A DNA stretch of 64,000 bases from Parcubacteria group bacterium GW2011_GWA2_40_14 (GTDB lineage Bacteria; Patescibacteriota; Minisyncoccia; Phycocordibacterales; DATDWN01), in contig LBYF01000001.1 in assembly GCA_000996025.1 (NCBI GenBank), positions 3,507 through 67,506 on the forward strand, in the 5' to 3' direction. The notes under the pieces were generated by a model, which saw only the letters and a list, made by a program, of their open reading frames with translations, was not told the origin of the DNA and did not search any database. This document shows, in pieces, positions 1 to 10,182 of this stretch. A program made the translations under genes and the position numbers. Positions within the stretch are counted from its first letter, which is position 1. Each line of letters begins with the position of its first letter.

Positions 1-490
1 CTTTTGAGAGTGGTTGGCCTGTATTTTTTGCAAGCATCTTATTTAGAGTCTCACGATTTTTTAGAATGCGTTTTGCGGATATTTCTATATCAGAAGCTTG
101 TCCTTCGGTTCCGCCATGAGGTTGGTGAATCATAACTTCAGCATTTGGCAGGGCAAATCTTTTGCCTTTTGCGCCGGCGGAGAGTATGACTGCTCCCATA
201 GATGCGGCAAGTCCAACACCTACAGTAGAGATATCATTTTTGAGGTGATTCATAGTATCTACTATTGCAAGACCGGCAGTGATTGAACCTCCAGGTGAGT
301 TTACATAGAAAGAAATGTCTTTTTTGGAATCTTCAGACTGGAGGAAAAGCATTTGGGCGATAATAAGGTTTGCCACATGGTCGTCAATAGGACCATCCAG
401 GAAAATAATATTGTCGCGCAAAAGCCGTGAGAAAATATCGTAAGCTCTTTCCCCGAATTGTGATTTTTCTATTACTGTAGGTATAAGCAT
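1..490 (-). CDS. clpP: ATP-dependent Clp protease proteolytic subunit ClpP; 3' end runs off the window
   Basis: The reverse-strand translation starts [24 protein letters not shown] and contains the ClpP Ser-His region ([22 protein letters not shown]). It was not in the ORF track because it has no stop inside the window. Confidence 0.85.
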
Positions 491-572
491 AAATATACGA
501 AATAACGAATTAAAACACGAATGGCTACGAATAATTCGTTGCAATTCGTAGACTCATTTGTTACTTCGTATA
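491..572. repeat. Family-1 palindromic repeat copy (upstream of rsmE)
   Basis: The sequence atacgaaataacgaattaaaacacgaatggctacgaataattcgttgcaattcgtagactcatttgttacttcgtatat is nearly identical to the copy at 8884. Confidence 0.75.
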
Positions 573-619
573 TTATCAGAAAATAAAAAATAGTCAAAAT
601 TGTGTTATATTAGGTAATC

Positions 620-1354
620 ATGAGACTTCATAGATTTTATGTAGACAAACCTATCACCGATGAAACATTTGATGTGAATGACAGAGACTTAATTGCCCAG
701 TGGCGGAGTGTTTTTCGCTACAATGTCGGTAGTCAAGTGGTACTTTTTGATGGTTCGGGGGTAGATTATCTTTGCATGATTACATCACTTCGCAATCTTG
801 GCGCCACTGTTTCTATTATAAAAAAGACCAAGAATGATTTTGTTCCGAGTTGTGAACTGTGGCTGTGTGTTGGAATTATAAAAAAAGATAATTTTGAGCT
901 GGTGGTGGAGAAAGCAACAGAACTTGGGGTGTTACATATCGTTCCAATACTTTGCGACAGAAGCGAGAAAAAAAATATAAATATGGAACGCTTACAAAAA
1001 ATTGCAATTGAGTCTAGCGAGCAGTCCGGCAGGGGAGATGTGCCTGTTATACACGAAATCATTAACCTTTCTATGTTACTAATGTCAAAGAGTCCCTTTG
1101 ACATTATGCCAAAGGAGAAAATAGTATTACAGCTAAATAGCCGATATATCGGTGATTTTCTTGAAAAGCAACCGCTGGAAGCGAGCAGTGGTCGCATGAC
1201 CAAGTTGGCGGTTTTTATTGGTCCGGAAGGTGGATGGAGTGATAACGAACTGAAAGATTTTGCTCTGCACAACATACCCTCTGTCTCTCTTGGCCACCAA
1301 ATCCTCCGCACCGAAACCGCATCCATCGCCGTTTCAAGTTTATTGCTTTTGTAA
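620..1354 (+). CDS. rsmE: 16S rRNA (uracil1498-N3)-methyltransferase RsmE
   Basis: The 244-aa ORF has RsmE family signatures, including the C-terminal SLGxxILRTETA motif. Confidence 0.8.
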   Translation: MRLHRFYVDKPITDETFDVNDRDLIAQWRSVFRYNVGSQVVLFDGSGVDYLCMITSLRNLGATVSIIKKTKNDFVPSCELWLCVGIIKKDNFELVVEKATELGVLHIVPILCDRSEKKNINMERLQKIAIESSEQSGRGDVPVIHEIINLSMLLMSKSPFDIMPKEKIVLQLNSRYIGDFLEKQPLEASSGRMTKLAVFIGPEGGWSDNELKDFALHNIPSVSLGHQILRTETASIAVSSLLLL

Positions 1355-1357
1355 AAA

Positions 1358-1397
1358 TAAATGTGTAAGGGTTCGCCTTACACATTTGGTTTCATTT
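1358..1397 (+). terminator. Rho-independent terminator after rsmE
   Basis: An 11-bp stem (aatgtgtaagg / ccttacacatt) is followed by a T-rich run. Confidence 0.55.
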
Positions 1398-1528
1398 GAG
1401 GAGCCAGTTATTGAATTGTGTTAATAGTAGTTGTGTCACCCAAAAGGCAATTACTGACGGTATCAAACCTATTAGAAATTGTTTTGTAATTCTCATACAA
1501 ATCTCCAGTCTCCTTTCCTATTTGCATT

Positions 1529-2425
1529 TTAACATTTTTCCAGAAATTGGAATACCAACTCGTTAGTCAGAAAAGTCTCCACATACATTCGTACTCGGAA
1601 ACGGTCAGCATCTTTGTGATGGACCAGAATATTTTCCATCTCTTTTTTTACATCCTCCTCTTTTGGCACAATATTTTCTTCTTTTGCTATTGTATTTAAT
1701 ATCACTTGCGATTTGGCTCGTTTGATTGCTGTGTCTTTCCATTCCATACGCAAATCATTTTCAGTTTTCTTTATACGTTTCAAATAGTCCTCAAATGATA
1801 TGCCGGATTTACCAATATCGTCTTTGAACTGGGCCAACATTTTCTCCATCTCGCCTTCCACGATTATTTTTGGCAGGTCAATTGTTGATTCACTCATAAT
1901 TTTTTCCAAAATCCCTATTCGTCTTTTGTCTTTCTCTGTCGTAGCGTCCGCCTTATATGTTTTATTGCTTTCGGTCTCTGTCAGCGAAATACTAGATGCG
2001 ATTTTTTTGTAATCGGTTAGCGAAACCTCCGGCATAAGGGCCGTTTTTATTTTGAATTCCAAAGGATTTCTAGGAGCCATTTTTGTAATAGATATCTCTG
2101 GTCGTCCGATTGCATCCACATGATGTTCTTCTAAAATGTTTGGATACTCTTCGGACAAGGCCATTTCTGCCGCTTCTTCCAAAATTCTCATTTCGCCAAC
2201 TTTTTGTACGAGGATAGCATCCGGAACATTTCCTTTGCGAAAACCAGCTATTTCCACAGATTCTTTCAGTCTATTGAGTGCTTTTTGTCGCATAAGCGAC
2301 ATTTTTTCAACAGTGATTGCGCCTACAATCTCCAGTTCTCTCTCGGGAAGGGAATTAAGCGTTATGTCTTTGTATCCTTTTATCATAATGTTTTCTAGTC
2401 TATATTTTTCGTGGATTTTTTGCAA
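1529..2425 (-). CDS. tig: Trigger factor (short form)
   Basis: The N-terminal ribosome-binding signature GFRKGNVP is present. At 298 aa it is shorter than the canonical trigger factor. Confidence 0.7.
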   Translation of the reverse strand: MQKIHEKYRLENIMIKGYKDITLNSLPERELEIVGAITVEKMSLMRQKALNRLKESVEIAGFRKGNVPDAILVQKVGEMRILEEAAEMALSEEYPNILEEHHVDAIGRPEISITKMAPRNPLEFKIKTALMPEVSLTDYKKIASSISLTETESNKTYKADATTEKDKRRIGILEKIMSESTIDLPKIIVEGEMEKMLAQFKDDIGKSGISFEDYLKRIKKTENDLRMEWKDTAIKRAKSQVILNTIAKEENIVPKEEDVKKEMENILVHHKDADRFRVRMYVETFLTNELVFQFLEKC

Positions 2426-2429
2426 TCTA

Positions 2430-2470
2430 AAAACTTGCTAACACTGGGTGTTAGCAAGTTTTTAGATTTA
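2430..2470. repeat. Family-6 hairpin with conserved ACACTGGGTGT loop; bidirectional terminator between tig and the upstream minus-strand gene
   Basis: The sequence gctaacactgggtgttagc is flanked by A and T runs, and the same loop recurs at 26868-26935. Confidence 0.6.
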
Positions 2471-2505
2471 GAACTGCAAACTTTTTAAATCTTTTGACTT
2501 ATCTC

Positions 2506-2772
2506 TTACTCTGCTTCTGGGCTAAGGTTCGTAGTGTTTGTGCTACTTAAGTCTGCCTCTATTGAGCCCAGGTCATCTGACGAACTCATGCTTTTTATTG
2601 TTGCCGCTTCAGAAATATCTGCTGTCGGCTCACTACCGCCCCCGACTAAATTTTGAGCTGTTTTTGATTCCTCAATTCGCTTGCCCCAGAAATATAGTCC
2701 GCCGAGGATAATCAAAGCGATGATAACGATTGTGCCCACGATAGAGCCGATTGATGATTTGTTTTCTTCCAT
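2506..2772 (-). CDS. Small membrane protein (one TM, Ser/Asp-rich tail)
   Basis: The 88-aa ORF has a hydrophobic segment IVGTIVIIALIILGGLYFW. No family was recognised. Confidence 0.35.
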   Translation of the reverse strand: MEENKSSIGSIVGTIVIIALIILGGLYFWGKRIEESKTAQNLVGGGSEPTADISEAATIKSMSSSDDLGSIEADLSSTNTTNLSPEAE

Positions 2773-2806
2773 GGTGTTTGGTTAATTTTCAATTTTTAAA
2801 CAATTT

Positions 2807-3517
2807 TTAATTTTGTACTTTTGTTTCTGTTTTCACAGTAGTAGAAACTCCTTTCAGACTACCAACTGCTTTTTCTAGAGATTTGCGAGCGCTCCCCAAA
2901 TTTTTCTCAATATCTTTCGCTATTTTAGCCAAAGCGGAGAGAGAGACTTTTGCTTGTGCTCTGGTTGTTGTTGCATTTTCTAGAGCGACTGTCGCCTCTG
3001 CAGTTGTTTTGAGACTGATAAGTAAAACTTTTGCCGCCTCAAGTGATACTTTTGCATCATTAACATATCTTTCAGCAACTAGAATATCTCCTCCGGCATT
3101 TTTTATTTTTTCAATTCTACTCTGAACTCGGACTACAAGCCCTTCTAGTCGTTCAATAGTTGCTTGAAATCTCGCATTCATCTTTTCAAAACGATTTTCC
3201 ACCCTTTCTCTTAATTTCTCTATTCTCTTTTCTTCAATTTTTCCTTTTACCTCCTCTTTTCTCTCTTTTATATCACTTTTTGCCTCTTCTCGCCTATCTT
3301 TTATTTCACCCTTAGCTTCTATTCTTATAGCTTTGACATCCGCTCTTGTTTCTGTTCGAATTTCCTTTTTACCTTCAATTAATGCTTTTAACCTTGGTAA
3401 TAATTTTTGTTTTGTTTCCACCGTTACATTTGTATCCGTATCTGTTTCTGCATACGCAAATCCTGCGCTGGATAAAACAAGCATGGCAATTAATGTTTTT
3501 AGTATTATATGTTTCAT
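2807..3517 (-). CDS. Secreted coiled-coil protein (signal peptide plus K/E-rich heptads)
   Basis: MKHIILKTLIAMLVLSSAGFAYA looks like a signal peptide, and the rest is a charged repetitive coiled-coil-like sequence. Confidence 0.5.
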   Translation of the reverse strand: MKHIILKTLIAMLVLSSAGFAYAETDTDTNVTVETKQKLLPRLKALIEGKKEIRTETRADVKAIRIEAKGEIKDRREEAKSDIKERKEEVKGKIEEKRIEKLRERVENRFEKMNARFQATIERLEGLVVRVQSRIEKIKNAGGDILVAERYVNDAKVSLEAAKVLLISLKTTAEATVALENATTTRAQAKVSLSALAKIAKDIEKNLGSARKSLEKAVGSLKGVSTTVKTETKVQN

Positions 3518-4255: not shown

Positions 4256-5491
4256 TTATTTTTCTTCCTTAATTTCAACAGGAGTTTCTTCAACCTTCTC
4301 TTCTTTTATTTCACCTCGAGGATTTGTGGACTTTATATCTATTTTCCACCCAGTCAGTTTGGCCGCCAGCCGGACATTTTGTCCACCTTTGCCTATAGCC
4401 AAAGATTGCTGGTCTTCGGAAACAGTGACGCTTGCTTGTTTTTCTGTCTCATTTATTTCTACAGACAATACTTTGGCAGGGGACAGAGCATCTTCTATAA
4501 ATTTCTTAGGGGCTTCCGACCATTCAATAATATCTATTTTTTCTCCACCAAGCTCGGACATGACAGTAGAAACACGAACACCGCGCCCACCGACCATAGA
4601 GCCGACAGGGTCAATATGAGCATCTTTGGACGTCACGGCTATTTTTGTCCGAGAGCCGGCTTCACGGGCAATAGACTTTACAACCACAGTGCCATTGGCA
4701 ATCTCTGGTGTTTCTGTTTCAAAAAGTTTTTCTAAAAATTTTGGATGTGAACGAGAAAGTCGCAAAAACACTCCTTTGCTAGAGTCTTCCACTCGATAGA
4801 GATAGGCCCGGACACGCTCGCCTTGAGCAAATCGCTCTCCCGGAATCTGTTCTTCGTACGGTAATATACCTGGGGCACGACCCATATCTATGAAAATATT
4901 TCCTCGCTCCATTCTTTGTACTGTGCCAGAGACAATTTCACCTTCTTTCTTGCCATACTCACTGACAATATGTATTTTCTCGGCCTCGCGAATTTTCTGC
5001 ATGATAACTTGTTTGGCGGTTTGAGCGGCAATGCGACCATAGTCTCCTTGCGATTCCAGAGGGAAAACCATTTCATCACCCAAGGCAATATCTTTTTTGA
5101 TGCGTCGAGCATCGCTTAACATAATATGATGTTCGGGGTTATAGAGTTCAATTTCGGCATCGGGCGTCCCGGTGCCGATGTTGCCTTCTGCTCCGACGAC
5201 GTCACTTTTGGCCTTTTGGGACTTGCTGCCAAAGGCAGGTTCAACGTCGGCATCGGGACGCTCTGTCATAAAGACAGTATTTTCATCCACCACAATTTTA
5301 ACCTGAAACATTTCAGTTTTTCCGGTATTGAGGTCAAATTTTGCTCGCACAATCTGGCCTTTCTTGCCATATTCTTTTTTGTAGGCAGTTGCCAAAGCAA
5401 GCTCAATGGCTTCTATTATTTTTTCTTTTGGAATCCCGCGCTCTTCTTCAAGTTGGGTTAGCACAGAATTTACTACTTTTAGATCAATCAT
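4256..5491 (-). CDS. nusA: Transcription termination/antitermination factor NusA
   Basis: The N-terminal domain, S1 and KH regions are recognisable (MIDLKVV...QLEEERGIPKE), with a K/E-rich C-terminal tail. Confidence 0.9.
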   Translation of the reverse strand: MIDLKVVNSVLTQLEEERGIPKEKIIEAIELALATAYKKEYGKKGQIVRAKFDLNTGKTEMFQVKIVVDENTVFMTERPDADVEPAFGSKSQKAKSDVVGAEGNIGTGTPDAEIELYNPEHHIMLSDARRIKKDIALGDEMVFPLESQGDYGRIAAQTAKQVIMQKIREAEKIHIVSEYGKKEGEIVSGTVQRMERGNIFIDMGRAPGILPYEEQIPGERFAQGERVRAYLYRVEDSSKGVFLRLSRSHPKFLEKLFETETPEIANGTVVVKSIAREAGSRTKIAVTSKDAHIDPVGSMVGGRGVRVSTVMSELGGEKIDIIEWSEAPKKFIEDALSPAKVLSVEINETEKQASVTVSEDQQSLAIGKGGQNVRLAAKLTGWKIDIKSTNPRGEIKEEKVEETPVEIKEEK

Positions 5492-5500
5492 ACAAATAAG

Positions 5501-5540
5501 TTTATAAAGTTATAAAGTTTGTAAAGTTCATAAAGCTAAT
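5501..5540. repeat. Family-2 repeat (GTAAAGTTATAAAGTT words), partial copy upstream of nusA
   Basis: The sequence gtttataaagttataaagtttgtaaagttcataaagc recurs at 37634, 38802 and 56755. Confidence 0.6.
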
Positions 5541-5624
5541 TTTGATAAAAAGAATGTCCGCTCCCATGAGCGAACTTCAATGCACCTATACTATCATAAG
5601 CTCTATAGTCTTGTCAACAAAACA

Positions 5625-5672
5625 AAAAAAGAAAAACCCACCTAAGTCTTGCAAAGCAAAACTTAGGTGGGT
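5625..5672. terminator. Hairpin terminator between the convergent or divergent ends of nusA and the Clp-type ATPase
   Basis: The stem cccacctaagt...acttaggtggg is preceded by an A-run, which gives a T-run on the minus strand. Confidence 0.55.
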
Positions 5673-5698
5673 CCAATCCCAATGTTCAATCGGAAAGT

Positions 5699-6772
5699 TC
5701 ATAACGACACAGAGGTTCCCATCTCTTTGGAAAAGAGCATTTTGTCTACCGATTTTGCCAGATCAACCTTGATGATGTCGCCCAGGCCAATCTGTCCTGT
5801 GGCAATCAAATTGGAAAGTGGATAGACCAAAAACTTTTCGATCGCTCGCTTCAAATGACGCGCGCCATACTTTAGGTCCGTTCCTTGACGAAGCAGGAAT
5901 TCCTTGGCTTCTCCTGTGCATCTGAAGATGAACTGTTTGCCGGACTGCGACGCCAGGATGCGGTTCTGAACGTCGTTGAGTTCGATGTCCAGGATCTGCC
6001 TGAGGTGTTGTTGATTCAATGTGCGGAACACCACGACCTTATCGAGTCTGTTCATGAACTCCGGCGAAAACTTGCGCTTCGCCACTTCGAGAGCAGTGCG
6101 GTACATCTTCCGGTCGATATCGGCCAGATTGGATTCATCGGTCCGTACACCGGACGTGAATCCGATTCCGCCGGTCAGCATTTCACTCATCTCAACCGCC
6201 CCGAGGTTGGATGTCATGAACACCACGCATCGCGACAAGTCCACCTTGCGGTTGTCGCCTAAGGTGAGCGTGGCTTTATCCAGAATACCCAAGAGAAGCT
6301 GCCACAGCGCGTTATTGGCCTTTTCGATTTCGTCGAAGAGTATGAAACTTAACTTGCAAGTATCGGTCTGGTACTGATCAATTGCCCCCTGCGTCAAAAT
6401 CGGCGGAGTTTCGCGGTGTCCCAGATAGCCCGGAGGCGATCCGATGAGTTTCGCAATCTCATGGCTGTGCTGAAACTCGGCGCAATCGAGCTTGATAAAT
6501 GCCCGGGGGCTACCAAACAGGATTTCCGCGGAAGCTTCGACAACTCTGGTTTTTCCGGAACCGGTCGGTCCCAAAAACAGGAGGTTACCAATGGGACGAT
6601 TGGGCTGTGCCATACCTACCAGATAGACTTGGTACATGTTCACAATTTGACGAACTGCGCGATCCTGACCAATGATTTTGTTCAGCAGACCCTGTTCAAA
6701 GTCCAAGATTTCGTTGCTTTTTCTATCGGGGTTTAACACTACTTCTTCAGACTTTTTCATTACAGGCTTCAT
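5699..6772 (-). CDS. Stand-alone Clp/Hsp100-family AAA+ ATPase, D2 domain only
   Basis: Walker A (GPTGSGKTR), the sensor region and GSPPGYLGH are present, and the sequence aligns with the ClpB/ClpC second nucleotide-binding domain. It is noticeably more GC-rich than its neighbours and has a strong SD (aaaggagagact ATG). Confidence 0.8.
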   Translation of the reverse strand: MKPVMKKSEEVVLNPDRKSNEILDFEQGLLNKIIGQDRAVRQIVNMYQVYLVGMAQPNRPIGNLLFLGPTGSGKTRVVEASAEILFGSPRAFIKLDCAEFQHSHEIAKLIGSPPGYLGHRETPPILTQGAIDQYQTDTCKLSFILFDEIEKANNALWQLLLGILDKATLTLGDNRKVDLSRCVVFMTSNLGAVEMSEMLTGGIGFTSGVRTDESNLADIDRKMYRTALEVAKRKFSPEFMNRLDKVVVFRTLNQQHLRQILDIELNDVQNRILASQSGKQFIFRCTGEAKEFLLRQGTDLKYGARHLKRAIEKFLVYPLSNLIATGQIGLGDIIKVDLAKSVDKMLFSKEMGTSVSL

Positions 6773-6914
6773 AGTCTCTCCTTTGGATTAAAGCAGACAT
6801 TTAGAATTTGAAACACTATCAAAAAACAATCTGATTTACTTATAATATATTTACGAAAAAATATCAAATCAGAGTTTATCTGTTCTTATTCACACAATTT
6901 CGTGCCGGAGGAAG

Positions 6915-7015
6915 AATATTTTGATATACTAGATACGAAGTAACGAATAAGTTAACGAATTGCAACGAATAGAATCCATTCGTAGCCATTCGTGTTTTAA
7001 TTCGTTACTTCGTAT
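6915..7015. repeat. Family-1 palindromic repeat (TACGAA/TTCGTA words); abuts the pilB start codon
   Basis: This copy is the reverse complement of the copies at 491-572 and 8884-8967, and it ends ...cgttacttcgtatATG. Confidence 0.75.
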
Positions 7016-8785
7016 ATGCATATTGAAGAAAAACAATTAAAAGATTTTATTTTGGACTCGGGGCTTGTCTCGCGGGCTGACTTAACTCTGGCTGAAAAAG
7101 AAGGTCTGGAAAAGGGAGTAAGCTTGGGCAAAGTTTTGGTGAGCAAAGGAAAGCTTTCAGAAGATGATTTACGACGGATGCAGGCCTATATTCTGGGTAT
7201 TCCTTTTGTGGACCTCAAGGGCGAGAAATTGCCATTTGAAGTTCTCTCTCTTATTCCGGAGCCGATTGCTCGCAATCACAATATTGTAGCTTTCAAGAAA
7301 ACAGACTCTAGTTTGGAGGTAGCTATGTTAGACACCGAGGATTTGACTGCCATTGATTTTATCAAAAAGAAAGTAGGCCTCCGAATTTTACCTCGCTTGA
7401 CCGATGCCGACTCTGTCAAAAGCGCAATCCTCCAATATCAAAAGTCTCTCAAGGCGGAGTTTGGCGATTTAATTGCCAAGGAGGTTTCGTCACTTGAATT
7501 GAATCCGCTGAAACGAAGTGAAGGCGATGAAAACGAGGTCATAACTACGACAGAAGATTTGAAAAAAATGGCCGATGATGTGCCTGTGGTGCGCATAGTG
7601 GATACATTGCTGAAGCATGCCATTTTGCAAAACGCATCCGACATTCACATAGAGCCGCAGGAGCTGGAACTTCTGGTTCGCTATCGTATTGATGGCTTGC
7701 TTCACGATGCCATGCTCCTGCCGAAAAATGTGGGAGCATCCATTGCCGCTCGTATCAAAGTTTTGGCCATGCTCAAGCTTGATGAAAAGCGTTTGCCACA
7801 GGACGGCAGATTCAAAATTGACATGAATGGCGAGAAAGTTTCTTTTCGTGTTTCCACCTTGCCGACATATTATGGTGAGAAAACAGTTATGCGACTCCTC
7901 CGCGAAAATGTTTCCGGCTTTACACTGGAATCCCTCGGTTTTCATGGTGTGGGACTGGAGCGTATTCACAGAGCCGTCCAATCCACGACCGGCATGATAC
8001 TGGCTACCGGCCCGACTGGTTCTGGAAAAACCACCACTTTGTATACTATTTTGGATATTTTAAATACTGTTGATGTCAATATTTCCACAATTGAAGACCC
8101 AATAGAATATCAGATGAAGCGTATTAACCAAACTCAAGTTCGTCCAGAGATAGGATTAACATTTGCAAACGGATTGCGCACTTTGGTTCGCCAAGACCCG
8201 GATATTATTATGGTCGGTGAAATTCGTGACAATGAAACGGCTAATCTGGCTATAAATGCGTCGCTCACCGGTCATGTCGTTCTCTCAACACTTCATACAA
8301 ACTCTGCCGCCGGAGCCGTCCCTCGCTTGATAGATATGAAAGTGGAACCGTTTCTTATTGTTTCCACTGTTAATGTTATTATTGCCCAGCGTCTTATCCG
8401 AAAACTTGGAGATGGAAAAGAAAAATATTTTTTGACCAAAGCCGAGCTTCTAACTTTGGGCAAGAGAGTTAATTTAGACAAAGTCTTAGCTACTTTGAAG
8501 GAAGAAAAAATTGTAGGTCAAAGCGATGTTTGGGAACAAGTTCCTTTTTGGCGCCTGAAAAAGAATGTTTCATCCGAAGACGGTTTCTCCGGACGCATTG
8601 GCATTCACGAAATATTGAAAGTTTCTTTGCCAATAAAAGATATTATTCTCAAAGACGGCACCTCGGACGCAATCCAAAAACAAGCTGAAAGCGAAGGTAT
8701 GCTGACTATGTTTGAGGACGGCATCTTCAAAGCGGTACAAGGTGTAACCACCATTGAGGAAGTTCTTAGGGTTATCTCGGAATAG
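7016..8785 (+). CDS. pilB: Type IV pilus / type II secretion assembly ATPase PilB/GspE
   Basis: The ORF has an N-terminal GspE-N domain, Walker A GPTGSGKTTT, and Asp and His boxes. Confidence 0.9.
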   Translation: MHIEEKQLKDFILDSGLVSRADLTLAEKEGLEKGVSLGKVLVSKGKLSEDDLRRMQAYILGIPFVDLKGEKLPFEVLSLIPEPIARNHNIVAFKKTDSSLEVAMLDTEDLTAIDFIKKKVGLRILPRLTDADSVKSAILQYQKSLKAEFGDLIAKEVSSLELNPLKRSEGDENEVITTTEDLKKMADDVPVVRIVDTLLKHAILQNASDIHIEPQELELLVRYRIDGLLHDAMLLPKNVGASIAARIKVLAMLKLDEKRLPQDGRFKIDMNGEKVSFRVSTLPTYYGEKTVMRLLRENVSGFTLESLGFHGVGLERIHRAVQSTTGMILATGPTGSGKTTTLYTILDILNTVDVNISTIEDPIEYQMKRINQTQVRPEIGLTFANGLRTLVRQDPDIIMVGEIRDNETANLAINASLTGHVVLSTLHTNSAAGAVPRLIDMKVEPFLIVSTVNVIIAQRLIRKLGDGKEKYFLTKAELLTLGKRVNLDKVLATLKEEKIVGQSDVWEQVPFWRLKKNVSSEDGFSGRIGIHEILKVSLPIKDIILKDGTSDAIQKQAESEGMLTMFEDGIFKAVQGVTTIEEVLRVISE

Positions 8786-8790
8786 ACGAA

Positions 8791-8826
8791 GACTTCCAAA
8801 TCTGGCGCATTTCGTTGTTGGAAAGC
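8791..8826. repeat. Family-5 motif (GACTTCCAAATCTGGCG...GTTGTTGGA) immediately after the pilB stop
   Basis: The same words follow the tuf stop at 31221. Confidence 0.6.
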
Positions 8827-8883
8827 AAAAAATAAATCTTATACACAATTTTTGTGAAAATAAAATAAAATTTTGGTACAATA

Positions 8884-8967
8884 AACATACGAAATAACGA
8901 ATTAAAACACGAATGGCTACGGATTATTCGTTGCAATTCGTAGACCCATTCGTTACTTCGTATATTT
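8884..8967. repeat. Family-1 palindromic repeat; abuts the pilC start codon
   Basis: The copy ends ...cgttacttcgtatatttATG. Confidence 0.75.
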
Positions 8968-10182
8968 ATGTTATTTCATTACAAAGCACTGGATAGTACA
9001 GGGAAAGAGGTTGAGGCAAATCTGGAAGCCAAGGACAGGTTTGCTCTGTATCATGCCGTAAAAAAAGATGGCAATACAGTTATCTTTACAGAGGAAGTCA
9101 AAGCCAAAGGAAGATTTTCCTTGATAAAACTTTTACCATTTTTGGATAATGTTACAGCCCATGACAAAATAATTTTTGCCAGAAATCTTTCCAAAATGAT
9201 TCTGGCCGGTCTGCCCATTACTCGGGCCCTCTCTATTATGGAGAGGCAAGCCCGCGGCGGATTAAAGTCAGTTTTGAAAAATTTGAGTGAATCGGTAGGA
9301 AAAGGCACTACACTTTCCGAATCAATGAAAAATTTTCCAGATGTTTTTTCAACCCTTTTTACTTCAATGGTCCGAGCTGGAGAAGAATCAGGGAATTTGG
9401 CAACTAGCTTGGAGAATGTTGGTATGCAAATGGAGAAAACATACCAGCTTAATCGTAAAATACGCGGAGCAATGCTCTATCCGGCCATTATTCTGCTACT
9501 GATGGTCGCTATAGGTATTCTGATGATGGTTTATATGGTGCCGACATTAACTGCCACATTTATCGGTCTCAATTTAGACCTGCCGGTTTCTACACGCATT
9601 ATCATTTTTGTCAGTAATTTTCTAGCCGGTTATTTTACATTTTTTATTTTGGGAGTTGTGGTGACGACTGTCCTCCTCGTTTTTGCTTTTCGTAGCGACC
9701 AAGGGAAACGACTTTTAGAGGCGTTTCTTCTTCGCCTACCTATTATCGGAGAAATAGTAAAGGAGATTAATTCAGCGCGGACGGCCCGAACATTATCCTC
9801 GCTTCTTTCTTCGGGGGTGGATATTGTCTTGGCAGTCGGAGTGACAAAAGATGTCATACAAAACTCCTATTACAAAAAAGTTTTGGAAGAAGTGCAGATT
9901 AATATTCAAAAAGGAGAGGCCATCTCATCAGTTTTTTCATCTCATATTGATTTATATCCTATTTTTGTCGGGGAAATGGTAAATGTGGGAGAGGAAACGG
10001 GTAAAATAGCCGAAATGCTTAGCAATGTTGCTTTATTTTATGAGGAAGAAGTAGACCAAAAGACAAAAGATATTTCCTCTTTGATTGAACCGTTTTTGAT
10101 GATTTTTATTGGTTTGGCAGTTGGATTTTTCGCCATGGCGGTTATTAGCCCTATCTACTCATTAGGGGACTCCATACAATGA
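8968..10182 (+). CDS. pilC: Type IV pilus inner-membrane platform protein PilC/GspF
   Basis: There are two GspF repeats with TM segments. The stop overlaps the next start (ATGA). Confidence 0.9.
   Translation: MLFHYKALDSTGKEVEANLEAKDRFALYHAVKKDGNTVIFTEEVKAKGRFSLIKLLPFLDNVTAHDKIIFARNLSKMILAGLPITRALSIMERQARGGLKSVLKNLSESVGKGTTLSESMKNFPDVFSTLFTSMVRAGEESGNLATSLENVGMQMEKTYQLNRKIRGAMLYPAIILLLMVAIGILMMVYMVPTLTATFIGLNLDLPVSTRIIIFVSNFLAGYFTFFILGVVVTTVLLVFAFRSDQGKRLLEAFLLRLPIIGEIVKEINSARTARTLSSLLSSGVDIVLAVGVTKDVIQNSYYKKVLEEVQINIQKGEAISSVFSSHIDLYPIFVGEMVNVGEETGKIAEMLSNVALFYEEEVDQKTKDISSLIEPFLMIFIGLAVGFFAMAVISPIYSLGDSIQ

What the first reader, a model, noticed from the sequence alone, without database searches (positions are those of the whole stretch)
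5699..6772. Orphan D2-only Clp/Hsp100 AAA+ ATPase with elevated GC and a strong Shine-Dalgarno sequence; likely horizontally acquired
The 357-aa protein aligns with the second ATPase domain of ClpB/ClpC (GPTGSGKTR, GSPPGYLGH, FMTSNLG). It has no N-domain, no D1, no M-domain, and no ClpP-docking loop context. Its sequence is visibly more GC-rich than flanking genes and it is preceded by AAGGAGAG, whereas flanking core genes lack an SD. Terminators and repeats surround it. A single-ring Clp-type unfoldase of foreign origin wedged between nusA and the pilus operon is unusual. It could be part of an uncharacterised defence or quality-control module.
Basis: partly seen in the sequence, partly recalled or inferred. 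Interest (0 to 1): 0.6.

Follow-up and report, generated by a model that had tools for sequence, protein, structure and literature searches.

The report
Foreign single-ring Clp unfoldase in CPR bacterium

Summary
ORF 5699-6772 (-) encodes a 357-aa protein that is only the D2 AAA+ module plus D2-small domain of ClpB/ClpC-type Hsp100 proteins. It is the strongest compositional outlier of 73 ORFs (GC3 0.615 vs 0.35, z=5.0; codon-usage z=5.9). It also has one of only four strong Shine-Dalgarno sites. Horizontal transfer is strongly supported. Three related CPR genomes have pilB directly next to nusA with no such gene. All close relatives (81-85% identity) are acidobacterial, and the window copy is sister to a tight acidobacterial clade (100/100 bootstraps). 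One claim is wrong: the protein does have a ClpP-docking loop. An invariant GGIGF after sensor-1 aligns exactly with the IGF of ClpX and the VGF of ClpC, where ClpB has a gap. The host's canonical clpP lies 5.2 kb away. The best reading is a ClpX-like single-ring ClpP partner built from a ClpC-type D2 module. It belongs to a broad, uncharacterised family found in Acidobacteriota, on phage-like contigs, and independently acquired by a Saccharibacteria MAG. No defence context was found. ClpP binding is inferred, not shown.

The parts
5699..6772 (-). CDS of the 357-aa single-module Clp/Hsp100 ATPase (D2-type AAA+ large domain plus D2-small domain). The stop codon is TGA at 5699-5701.
   Evidence: The identical protein sits in the same context on at least 24 contigs from JGI, ENA and NCBI assemblies; one search adds Logan and UniRef as sources of the same sequence.
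6778..6783 (-). Shine-Dalgarno AAGGAG, 5 nt upstream of the ATG
   Evidence: Sequence read. Only 4 of 73 ORFs in the window have a strong SD.
6839..6867 (-). Candidate sigma-70-type promoter TTGATA-17 nt-TATAAG. This is inferred by eye; the scan tool missed it because the last base of the -10 hexamer is not T.
   Evidence: Sequence. Inference only.
6548..6571 (-). Walker A GPTGSGKT (res 68-75)
   Evidence: 7 of the 8 residues invariant in 194 family members (S72 in 193)
6419..6430 (-). Pore-loop-1 GYLG (res 115-118, Tyr116)
   Evidence: invariant in 194 sequences. It aligns to the ClpB D2 GYVG.
6329..6334 (-). Walker B catalytic Asp147-Glu148 (ILFDEIEKA)
6206..6214 (-). Sensor-1 TSN (res 187-189)
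6149..6172 (-). Putative ClpP-docking loop tip GGIGFTSG (res 201-208), inside a segment that is gapped in the ClpB alignment
   Evidence: It aligns with the B. subtilis ClpC VGF and the E. coli ClpX IGF; ClpB is gapped here. G204 and F205 are invariant in 194 sequences. An xG[F/Y/L] tripeptide occurs at the aligned position in 101 of 107 diverse single-module representatives.
6047..6049 (-). Arginine finger R242 (PEFMNRLD)
   Evidence: aligned to the ClpB PEFLNRLD
5858..5860 (-). Sensor-2 arginine R305 (YGARHLKR)
5624..5674 (-). Intrinsic-terminator-like hairpin (19-bp stem, 3-nt loop) plus U-run, starting 25 nt after the stop codon
   Evidence: (dG -34.8 kcal/mol, z -6.9)
5690..6880 (.). Approximate extent of the lineage-specific insertion between host pilB and host nusA. 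The boundaries are uncertain by about +-80 nt. Host-like sequence resumes at about 6880-7015 (pilB upstream element) and at about 5492-5605 (nusA promoter and leader).
   Evidence: Fine-scale GC profile and comparison with the empty-site spacers of L088, L089 and L091; empty sites
2..490 (-). First 163 codons of the host clpP gene (it runs off the window start). This is the putative proteolytic partner, 5.2 kb downstream on the same strand.
   Evidence: tblastn at 100% identity to the L001 ClpP. Canonical ClpP, 3e-80 to the best-matching solved ClpP structure, with the AASMG, MIHQP and DRD motifs.

Best explanation
The gene encodes an intact, catalytically competent, single-ring Hsp100/Clp unfoldase. 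It is one D2-type AAA+ module plus the D2-small domain, with no N-domain, D1 or M-domain.

Unlike ClpB, and like ClpC, ClpA and ClpX, it carries a surface loop with an invariant Gly-Gly-Ile-Gly-Phe tip at the ClpP-docking position. The most likely mechanism has three steps:
1. It forms hexamers.
2. It docks through the IGF loops onto the host's canonical ClpP.
3. It threads substrates through the Tyr116 pore loop into ClpP for degradation.
In function this is a ClpX-like partner built from a ClpC-type D2 ring.

It belongs to a large unnamed family of roughly 330-480-aa proteins. The family is a stable chromosomal gene in Acidobacteriota and also occurs on phage-like contigs.

In this Candidatus Zambryskibacteria lineage it arrived as a roughly 1.1-1.2-kb single-gene insertion between pilB and nusA. 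The donor was an unsampled acidobacterial lineage. The copy keeps donor-like GC3 and a Shine-Dalgarno site, and it lacks the roughly 35-aa C-terminal tail.

Shown: identity, domain content, intact motifs, loop homology, foreign origin, insertion site.
Inferred: hexamer formation, ClpP docking, expression, benefit to the host.
For: Identity:
- (AAA_2 plus ClpB_D2-small; ClpB D2 at 8e-58).
- Motifs intact and invariant or nearly so in 194 relatives.

Docking loop:
- The best PDB match for the loop segment is ClpC, with ClpC KYVGFN aligned to the query GGIGFT.
- BLASTP puts query G-I-G-F on ClpX G-I268-G-F270.
- NCBIfam and PDB ClpX hits map query 200-322 to ClpX 261-387.
- ClpB is gapped at that position.
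- The ClpI paper states that presence or absence of the LGF loop discriminates ClpC from ClpB (PMC10149685).
- An xG[F/Y/L] tripeptide at the aligned position in 101 of 107 diverse single-module representatives.

Partner: a canonical host clpP lies 5.2 kb away.

Horizontal transfer:
- GC3 z 5.0 and codon-usage z 5.9.
- SD present here but in only 6 of 73 ORFs.
- Empty pilB|nusA sites in L088, L089/L090 and L091, with the downstream synteny conserved in L088 and L089/L090, as far as clpP in L089/L090.
- Nearest relatives are acidobacterial.
- Sister to the acidobacterial clade in 100/100 bootstraps.

Constraint: dN/dS is 0.04-0.07, the same as among acidobacterial orthologues. Distance to the outgroup is normal, 0.631 vs 0.637.

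Real locus: the same context occurs on at least 24 contigs from independent assemblies.
Against: - No experiment or structure shows ClpP binding. The AlphaFold model was too poor to use (pLDDT 58).
- clpP is not a conserved neighbour of the family: 0 of 80 genome loci and 1 of 80 viral loci within +-8-10 kb. There is therefore no guilt-by-association support, although from general knowledge clpA and clpC are usually unlinked from clpP too.
- No substrate-recognition domain or adaptor is evident.
- The window copy lacks the C-terminal tail present in the acidobacterial clade.
- Most of the measured purifying selection probably predates the transfer, because dS is saturated while GC3 is still donor-like. 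Function in the CPR host is therefore not demonstrated.
- Some low-coverage alleles carry mutated pore loops (P0243 PGCRGH, P0248 PGHLGH).
- Whether the host already has ClpX or ClpC could not be checked.
Confidence: 0.6

Rival explanations
1. It is a stand-alone unfoldase or disaggregase that works without ClpP, like the isolated NBD2-type motor of mitochondrial Skd3/CLPB or the D2 ring of ClpB. On this reading the GGIGF loop serves another contact.
For: - The overall best sequence matches are to ClpB D2.
- Skd3 is a precedent for a single D2-like ring acting as a disaggregase (PMC7343390, listed; PDB 7ttr matches at 4e-29).
- The family shows no clpP linkage.
- In Pyrinomonadaceae a DnaJ-domain protein is a conserved neighbour.
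Against: - The loop is an insertion relative to ClpB at exactly the docking position.
- Its tripeptide aligns residue-for-residue with the ClpX IGF and the ClpC VGF, and it is invariant.
- There is no M-domain for DnaK coupling and no ankyrin or other substrate-binding domain.
- Transplanting a ClpA loop into ClpB yields the chimera whose structure is PDB 5ofo (listed). That such a loop suffices for ClpP binding is established knowledge (Weibezahn 2004, cited within PMC10149685).
Confidence: 0.2
2. It is a recently acquired passenger gene with no role in the CPR host. It would be neutral DNA taken up and not yet lost, and its intactness would only reflect recency.
For: - GC3 (0.615) is still donor-like, with no visible amelioration.
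- The C-terminal tail is missing.
- 3'-end heterogeneity and pore-loop-mutant alleles occur in low-coverage assemblies.
- The gene is absent from all three related genomes examined.
Against: - The ORF is full length, with every catalytic residue kept.
- It has an SD, a plausible promoter and a strong terminator.
- The identical protein is recovered from many samples and assemblies.
- A second CPR lineage (Saccharibacteria contig L006) independently retains a tail-less copy.
- At least one of the aberrant alleles, L087, is an exact mosaic and probably an assembly chimera.
Confidence: 0.13
3. It is a component of an anti-phage defence or other conflict system.
For: PADLOC matches to PDC-M37B (2.7e-22) and DolB (1.8e-15). 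Relatives occur on phage-like contigs.
Against: - The PADLOC matches cover only the generic ATPase core (residues 16-199).
- The neighbours here are pilB and nusA, so there is no partner gene.
- In 77 mostly acidobacterial loci the neighbours are housekeeping genes (inositol-phosphate synthase, BshC, a BshA-like GT4 glycosyltransferase, HEAT, DnaJ; the conserved neighbours F4 and F7 were read as PepA and SmpB by eye only), with vertical synteny.
- There are no integrase, transposase or target-site repeats.
Confidence: 0.04

Closest known systems
ClpC / ClpA / ClpE D2 ring (class I Hsp100 ClpP partners)
   Same: D2-type AAA+ module plus D2-small domain. The pore-loop GYxG, sensor-1 TSN, Arg finger and GAR sensor-2 are all present. 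A helix-loop insertion after sensor-1 carries a hydrophobic-Gly-Phe tripeptide that aligns with the ClpC VGF.
   Different: Only one AAA+ ring. There is no N-domain, no D1 and no M-domain or adaptor (MecA/ClpS) docking surface. It scores far below the full-length family cut-offs (ClpA model 209.7 vs 993 bits).
ClpX
   Same: Single-ring HCLR-clade unfoldase. The IGF loop aligns exactly with E. coli ClpX I268-G-F270. The expected mode of action, a hexamer docking on the ClpP heptamer, is the same.
   Different: Only about 24% identical. There is no N-terminal zinc-binding domain. The score is 38 bits against a 359-bit ClpX cut-off. The ATPase core is ClpB/ClpC-D2-like rather than ClpX-like.
ClpB D2 (NBD2) / Hsp104
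   Same: Highest overall sequence similarity (8e-58 to T. thermophilus ClpB residues 547-840).
   Different: ClpB lacks the docking loop; the alignment is gapped there. ClpB has an N-domain, D1 and M-domain and does not bind ClpP (PMC10149685).
Skd3 / human CLPB
   Same: A natural protein whose only ATPase ring is D2-like (PDB 7ttr, 4e-29).
   Different: Skd3 has an N-terminal ankyrin-repeat domain and acts as a ClpP-independent disaggregase (PMC7343390, listed; read at abstract level plus general knowledge). The window protein has no ankyrin domain and has the IGF loop.
ClpI (Actinomycetota)
   Same: A recently recognised Clp class found by bioinformatics. Its subtypes are told apart by presence or absence of the LGF loop (PMC10149685).
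   Different: ClpI proteins are two-ring enzymes with an N-terminal domain and an M-domain.

Membership tests
Hsp100/Clp AAA+ (D2-type module, Pfam AAA_2 plus ClpB_D2-small) | AAA_2 large domain and D2-small domain both above Pfam gathering scores | tested here: met
   116.9 bits (cut-off 27) and 57.6 bits (cut-off 21.9)
Hsp100/Clp AAA+ (D2-type module) | Walker A Lys, Walker B Asp-Glu, pore-loop Tyr, sensor-1 Asn, Arg finger and sensor-2 Arg all present | tested here: met
   K74, D147/E148, Y116, N189, R242 and R305 are present and invariant in 194 relatives
ClpB (TIGR03346 / PRK10865) | Full-length two-ring architecture with N-domain, D1 and M-domain; curated score cut-off | tested here: not met
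   231.9 bits vs a 1232-bit cut-off. Only model positions 552-847 are matched.
ClpB | Absence of a ClpP-docking loop | tested here: not met
   The GGIGF insertion is present where ClpB is gapped
ClpA / ClpC / ClpE (class I ClpP partners) | Two AAA+ modules plus an N-domain | tested here: not met
   A single module of 357 aa. The ClpA model matches positions 445-733 only.
ClpA / ClpC / ClpE (class I ClpP partners) | Hydrophobic-Gly-Phe/Leu tripeptide loop after sensor-1 in D2 | tested here: met
   Aligned with the B. subtilis ClpC VGF; invariant G-F
ClpX | Curated family score; N-terminal zinc-binding domain | tested here: not met
   38 bits vs a 359-bit cut-off. No zf-C4_ClpX hit.
ClpX | Single AAA+ ring with an IGF loop | tested here: met
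   (exact alignment of GIGF)
Any ClpP-partner unfoldase | Physical, tripeptide-dependent binding to ClpP and stimulation of proteolysis | not testable with these tools
   Only sequence inference is available. The monomer model is poor.
Skd3 / CLPB | N-terminal ankyrin repeats | tested here: not met
   No ankyrin hit in Pfam
PADLOC PDC-M37 / Dol candidate defence systems | Full-length match plus partner gene(s) adjacent | tested here: not met
   Matches cover residues 16-199 only. The neighbours are pilB and nusA.
Horizontally transferred gene (operational definition) | Atypical composition, absence from the syntenic site in relatives, and phylogenetic placement within or next to a foreign clade | tested here: met
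   composition; empty sites; tree

The most novel reading that the evidence does not exclude
The roughly 330-480-aa D2-only proteins with a hydrophobic-Gly-Phe loop are an unrecognised, widespread class of minimal ClpP-activating unfoldases. They would be a third architectural type beside ClpX and the two-ring ClpA/C/E. They have no N-terminal recognition domain and are mobile between phyla and phages. On this reading, CPR bacteria with reduced proteostasis networks have recruited them at least twice independently, each time as tail-less versions, to re-equip their ClpP.
Probability: 0.4. Interest if true: 0.65.

Novelty: new variant of a known kind. Interest (0 to 1): 0.45.

Why it matters
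If the docking-loop inference holds, this family is the smallest natural ClpP partner: one AAA+ ring with no accessory domain. That raises the question of how such a motor chooses its substrates, and it offers a simple system for studying ClpP activation.

For CPR biology this is a clean, well-bounded case of single-gene acquisition from a free-living soil or sediment phylum into a streamlined genome. The foreign translation signal is retained in a genome that almost lacks Shine-Dalgarno sites. There is also a second, independent acquisition in Saccharibacteria.

If the gene is only a passenger, the interest is limited to a tidy horizontal-transfer example.

Tried and rejected
1. AlphaFold2 on a 36-sequence alignment gave mean pLDDT 58 and pTM 0.56. 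The alignment was too shallow because only hits of at least 80% identity were allowed. The model was not used and no fold search was run.
2. L087 (P0003, 392 aa) first looked like a full-length CPR copy that preserved donor synteny: the tail plus the 3' end of the TonB-dependent-like neighbour of L007/L008. It is an exact mosaic of the window allele and the acidobacterial contig L092 from the same study. I treated it as a probable assembly chimera and excluded it.
3. clpP adjacency as guilt by association: 0 of 80 genome loci and 1 of 80 viral loci. Uninformative.
4. Rfam on 5300-9100, and on the empty-site spacer of L091, found nothing above noise.
5. A search for target-site duplications or inverted repeats flanking the insert found none.
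6. A spaced ACGAAT pattern search returned 0 matches; the pattern was badly chosen.
7. Literature searches found no paper describing a bacterial D2-only, IGF-bearing Clp family. The old class-II names ClpM and ClpN appear only as list items.
8. Common origin of the two CPR copies: rejected by the tree (0/100), although a modest excess of shared states remains.
9. Whether the host also encodes ClpX, ClpC or ClpB could not be determined.

Full report
**1. What is in the sequence**

The minus-strand ORF 5699..6772 encodes 357 aa.
- Pfam finds only AAA_2 (res 59-245, 1.2e-33) and ClpB_D2-small (res 252-336, 1.3e-15).
- NCBIfam matches cover only the last third of the two-ring models: ClpB positions 552-847 of 853 and ClpA positions 445-733 of 734. 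Both are far below the family cut-offs.
- The best solved-structure match is T. thermophilus ClpB residues 547-840 (8e-58). The isolated ClpB NBD2 crystal constructs follow.
- The neighbour upstream is pilB on the other strand (7016..8785), so no D1 has been split off by a frameshift.

The protein is a genuine stand-alone D2 module.

**2. Composition and signals**

- Among 73 ORFs of the window, the gene has the highest GC (0.503 vs 0.396+-0.036) and the highest GC3 (0.615 vs 0.350+-0.053, z=5.0). GC1 and GC2 are ordinary.
- Synonymous-codon divergence from the rest of the window is also the highest (z=5.9, n=46).
- AAGGAG lies 5 nt before the ATG. Only 4 of 73 ORFs have a strong SD and 67 have none.
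- A 19-bp hairpin plus U-run follows the stop codon (dG -34.8 kcal/mol, z -6.9).
- The other 'terminator' at 5575..5556, together with the promoter-like TTGACA/TAGTAT, belongs to the nusA leader. It is conserved in relatives that lack the gene, L091 and L088.
- The 'repeats' are two 83-nt imperfect palindromes in front of pilB (6933-7015) and pilC (8881-8969). They are host elements.

**3. Origin**

The exact protein is annotated in Candidatus Zambryskibacteria MAGs from Rifle. It occurs in the same context on at least 24 contigs from JGI, ENA and NCBI assemblies; the cluster lookup adds Logan and UniRef as sources of the same sequence. The locus is therefore not an assembly artefact.

*Empty sites.* Three related CPR genomes have NusA 81-83% identical to the window's. 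In all three, pilB and nusA are adjacent and divergent, with spacers of 245, 483 and 489 bp and no Clp gene (spacer lengths measured). L088 and L089/L090 keep the downstream gene order (tig, rsmE, rny, hup, and in L089/L090 also ppa and clpP); L091 ends within nusA.

*Nearest relatives.* Outside the species, the closest proteins (81-85% identity) are about 391-aa proteins. The named ones are acidobacterial. A scan of one genome per species returned 80 loci, nearly all Acidobacteriota: Pyrinomonadaceae, Blastocatellia, Chloracidobacterium and Terriglobia.

*Tree.* In a bootstrapped NJ tree the window copy is sister to the tight acidobacterial 'P-group' (100/100). It lies outside the crown of that group in 85/100 replicates.

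*Rate.* Its distance to the more distant acidobacterial sequences is normal (identity 0.631 vs 0.637 for the P-group). It is therefore a separate lineage and not a fast-evolving offshoot.

*Timing.* dN/dS against acidobacterial orthologues is 0.04-0.07, with saturated dS. GC3 still equals that of the donors (0.58-0.74). Most of the divergence must therefore predate the transfer. The donor is unsampled, and the transfer is recent relative to the time amelioration would take.

*Insert.* It is essentially the ORF alone, about 1.1-1.2 kb (roughly 5690-6880), with no mobile-element genes or flanking repeats.

**4. The ClpP-docking loop**

- Right after sensor-1 (FMTSNLG) there is a segment (about 15 residues longer than in ClpB by the alignment) containing GGIGFTSG (res 201-208).
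- When the loop region alone is searched against the PDB, ClpC is the best hit. B. subtilis ClpC KYVGFN aligns with GGIGFT, and ClpB is gapped there.
- BLASTP against E. coli ClpX aligns TG-GIGF with TGSGIGF, which is the IGF loop at 268-270. The mapping is independently consistent with the NCBIfam and PDB ClpX hits.
- G204 and F205 are invariant and I203 nearly so in 194 relatives, as are all the catalytic residues.
- The literature treats this loop as the marker that separates ClpP-binding ClpC from ClpP-independent ClpB (PMC10149685).
- The host encodes a canonical ClpP 5.2 kb downstream. Its first 163 codons are window 2..490 on the minus strand.
- No other Clp ATPase is present in the window or in the CPR loci fetched.

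**5. The family**

An exhaustive HMMER search of 1.84 billion representatives gave 31,808 hits at E<=1e-3. The 150 best are mostly proteins of about 300-500 aa (114 of 150), that is, single-module proteins. Of 107 such representatives, 101 have an xG[F/Y/L] tripeptide at the aligned loop position: IGF 27, LGF 21, MGF 17 and others. A strict hydrophobic-Gly-aromatic match is present in 85. The catalytic residues are conserved.

In Pyrinomonadaceae the gene has vertical synteny: inositol-phosphate synthase, then Clp, then a convergent HEAT-repeat protein, a DnaJ-domain protein, and two further conserved ORFs that I read by eye as PepA and SmpB (these two were not scanned). In the closest loci it follows BshC and a BshA-like GT4 glycosyltransferase.

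clpP is not a neighbour: 0 of 80 genome loci and 1 of 80 viral loci.

Single-module relatives (45-64% identity) also sit on IMG/VR contigs amid arrays of small co-oriented ORFs.

NCBIfam has no specific model for the family, and no paper describing it was found.

**6. A second CPR copy**

A Saccharibacteria MAG contig (L006) carries an 83%-identical, tail-less copy. By my reading of the ORF translations, which I did not scan, its neighbours are rplU, recR, dnaB, cysS and hrcA. Locus GC is 0.475. It nests inside the acidobacterial P-group and is never sister to the window copy (0/100). This indicates an independent acquisition.

It does share slightly more derived states with the window copy than average (10 vs 4.4+-1.9). 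It also shares an AAAGGAG SD and an MKP start. A shared CPR-adapted source for part of the gene is therefore not fully excluded.

**7. Caveats**

The window protein lacks the roughly 35-aa C-terminal tail of the P-group. The tail is not conserved in the one Pyrinomonadaceae sequence in that alignment (P0004), so its loss may be neutral.

Several rare alleles share the CPR 5' end but differ at the 3' end. One of them, L087, is an exact mosaic with an acidobacterial contig from the same project and is probably chimeric. Two others have mutated pore loops. These were not used as evidence.

ClpP binding, oligomerisation and expression are inferences.

**8. Verdict**

The 'no docking loop' statement is wrong. 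The defence idea is unsupported.

The protein is best described as a minimal, single-ring, ClpC-D2-type unfoldase with a ClpX-like mode of ClpP docking. That makes it a new variant of a known kind.

Interest is moderate. The horizontal-transfer case is tidy but unsurprising. The more interesting point is that a very large family with this minimal architecture appears to be uncharacterised.

Noticed in passing
window 6933-7015 and 8881-8969: Two copies of an 83-89-nt imperfect palindrome lie immediately upstream of the pilB and pilC start codons. The arms are about 41 nt and 75-80% self-complementary, are rich in ACGAAT/ATTCGT, and the two copies are 90-95% complementary to each other. A similar CGAAT-rich palindrome precedes pilB in the relative L091 (by eye). 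It may be a regulator-binding array or an RNA element of the pilus operon. There is no Rfam match.
   Followed up: partly
window 5492-5617: The nusA promoter-like TTGACA/TAGTAT and a small leader hairpin (5556-5575, GTTCGC...GCGGAC plus U-run) are conserved in relatives that lack the Clp gene (L091 at about 87% over 123 nt; a similar hairpin is visible in L088). This may be a nusA autoregulatory attenuator.
   Followed up: partly
whole window: Only 6 of 73 predicted ORFs have any GGAG/GAGG/AGGA motif upstream, and 4 of those are strong. This CPR genome appears to initiate translation largely without Shine-Dalgarno pairing.
   Followed up: partly
L087 (ENA ERZ27254762 k141_849197), L086, proteins P0243, P0248, P0249: Alleles that are identical to the window through pilB and the 5' half of the Clp gene diverge in the 3' part. 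L087 is an exact mosaic with the acidobacterial contig L092. P0243 and P0248 have pore-loop changes (PGCRGH, PGHLGH). These could be real recombinants or assembly chimeras; this is unresolved.
   Followed up: partly
L006 (CAZOKW010000003.1, Candidatus Saccharibacteria MAG), positions 60-130 and 116-1198: A second CPR lineage carries an independently acquired tail-less copy. Its 5' end shows a perfect 33-nt tandem duplication that includes the SD and the start codon (AAGAAAGGAGGGCTTATGAAGCCCCAAA, twice).
   Followed up: partly
L093-L137 (IMG/VR contigs): Single-module D2-type Clp ATPases (330-430 aa, 45-64% identical) occur on phage-like contigs. Some are low-GC (0.28-0.30) with arrays of small co-oriented ORFs. 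Only one locus (L117) has a clpP-like gene nearby.
   Followed up: partly
L091 (GCA_016202965.1 JACQNQ010000004.1), positions 135-3402 and 6483-6971: This related Zambryskibacteria contig has a reverse transcriptase plus bAvd (DGR-like) and a HicAB pair next to the pilus genes. Its pilB-nusA spacer holds a roughly 200-nt GC-richer segment ending in a terminator-like hairpin, with no Rfam match. It may be an unannotated small RNA.
   Followed up: partly
protein P0004 (Pyrinomonadaceae, 547 aa): It contains an internal tandem duplication of roughly 150 residues of the ATPase core, seen as a large insertion in alignment A1. The duplicated stretch runs from after Walker A (starting at AAEVLFGDPNAVIK) to sensor-1.
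   Followed up: no
window 6547-6571 vs 8009-8033: The Walker A coding DNA of the Clp gene and of pilB form a 25-nt, 88% complementary inverted repeat. This is probably a coincidence of P-loop codons.
   Followed up: no
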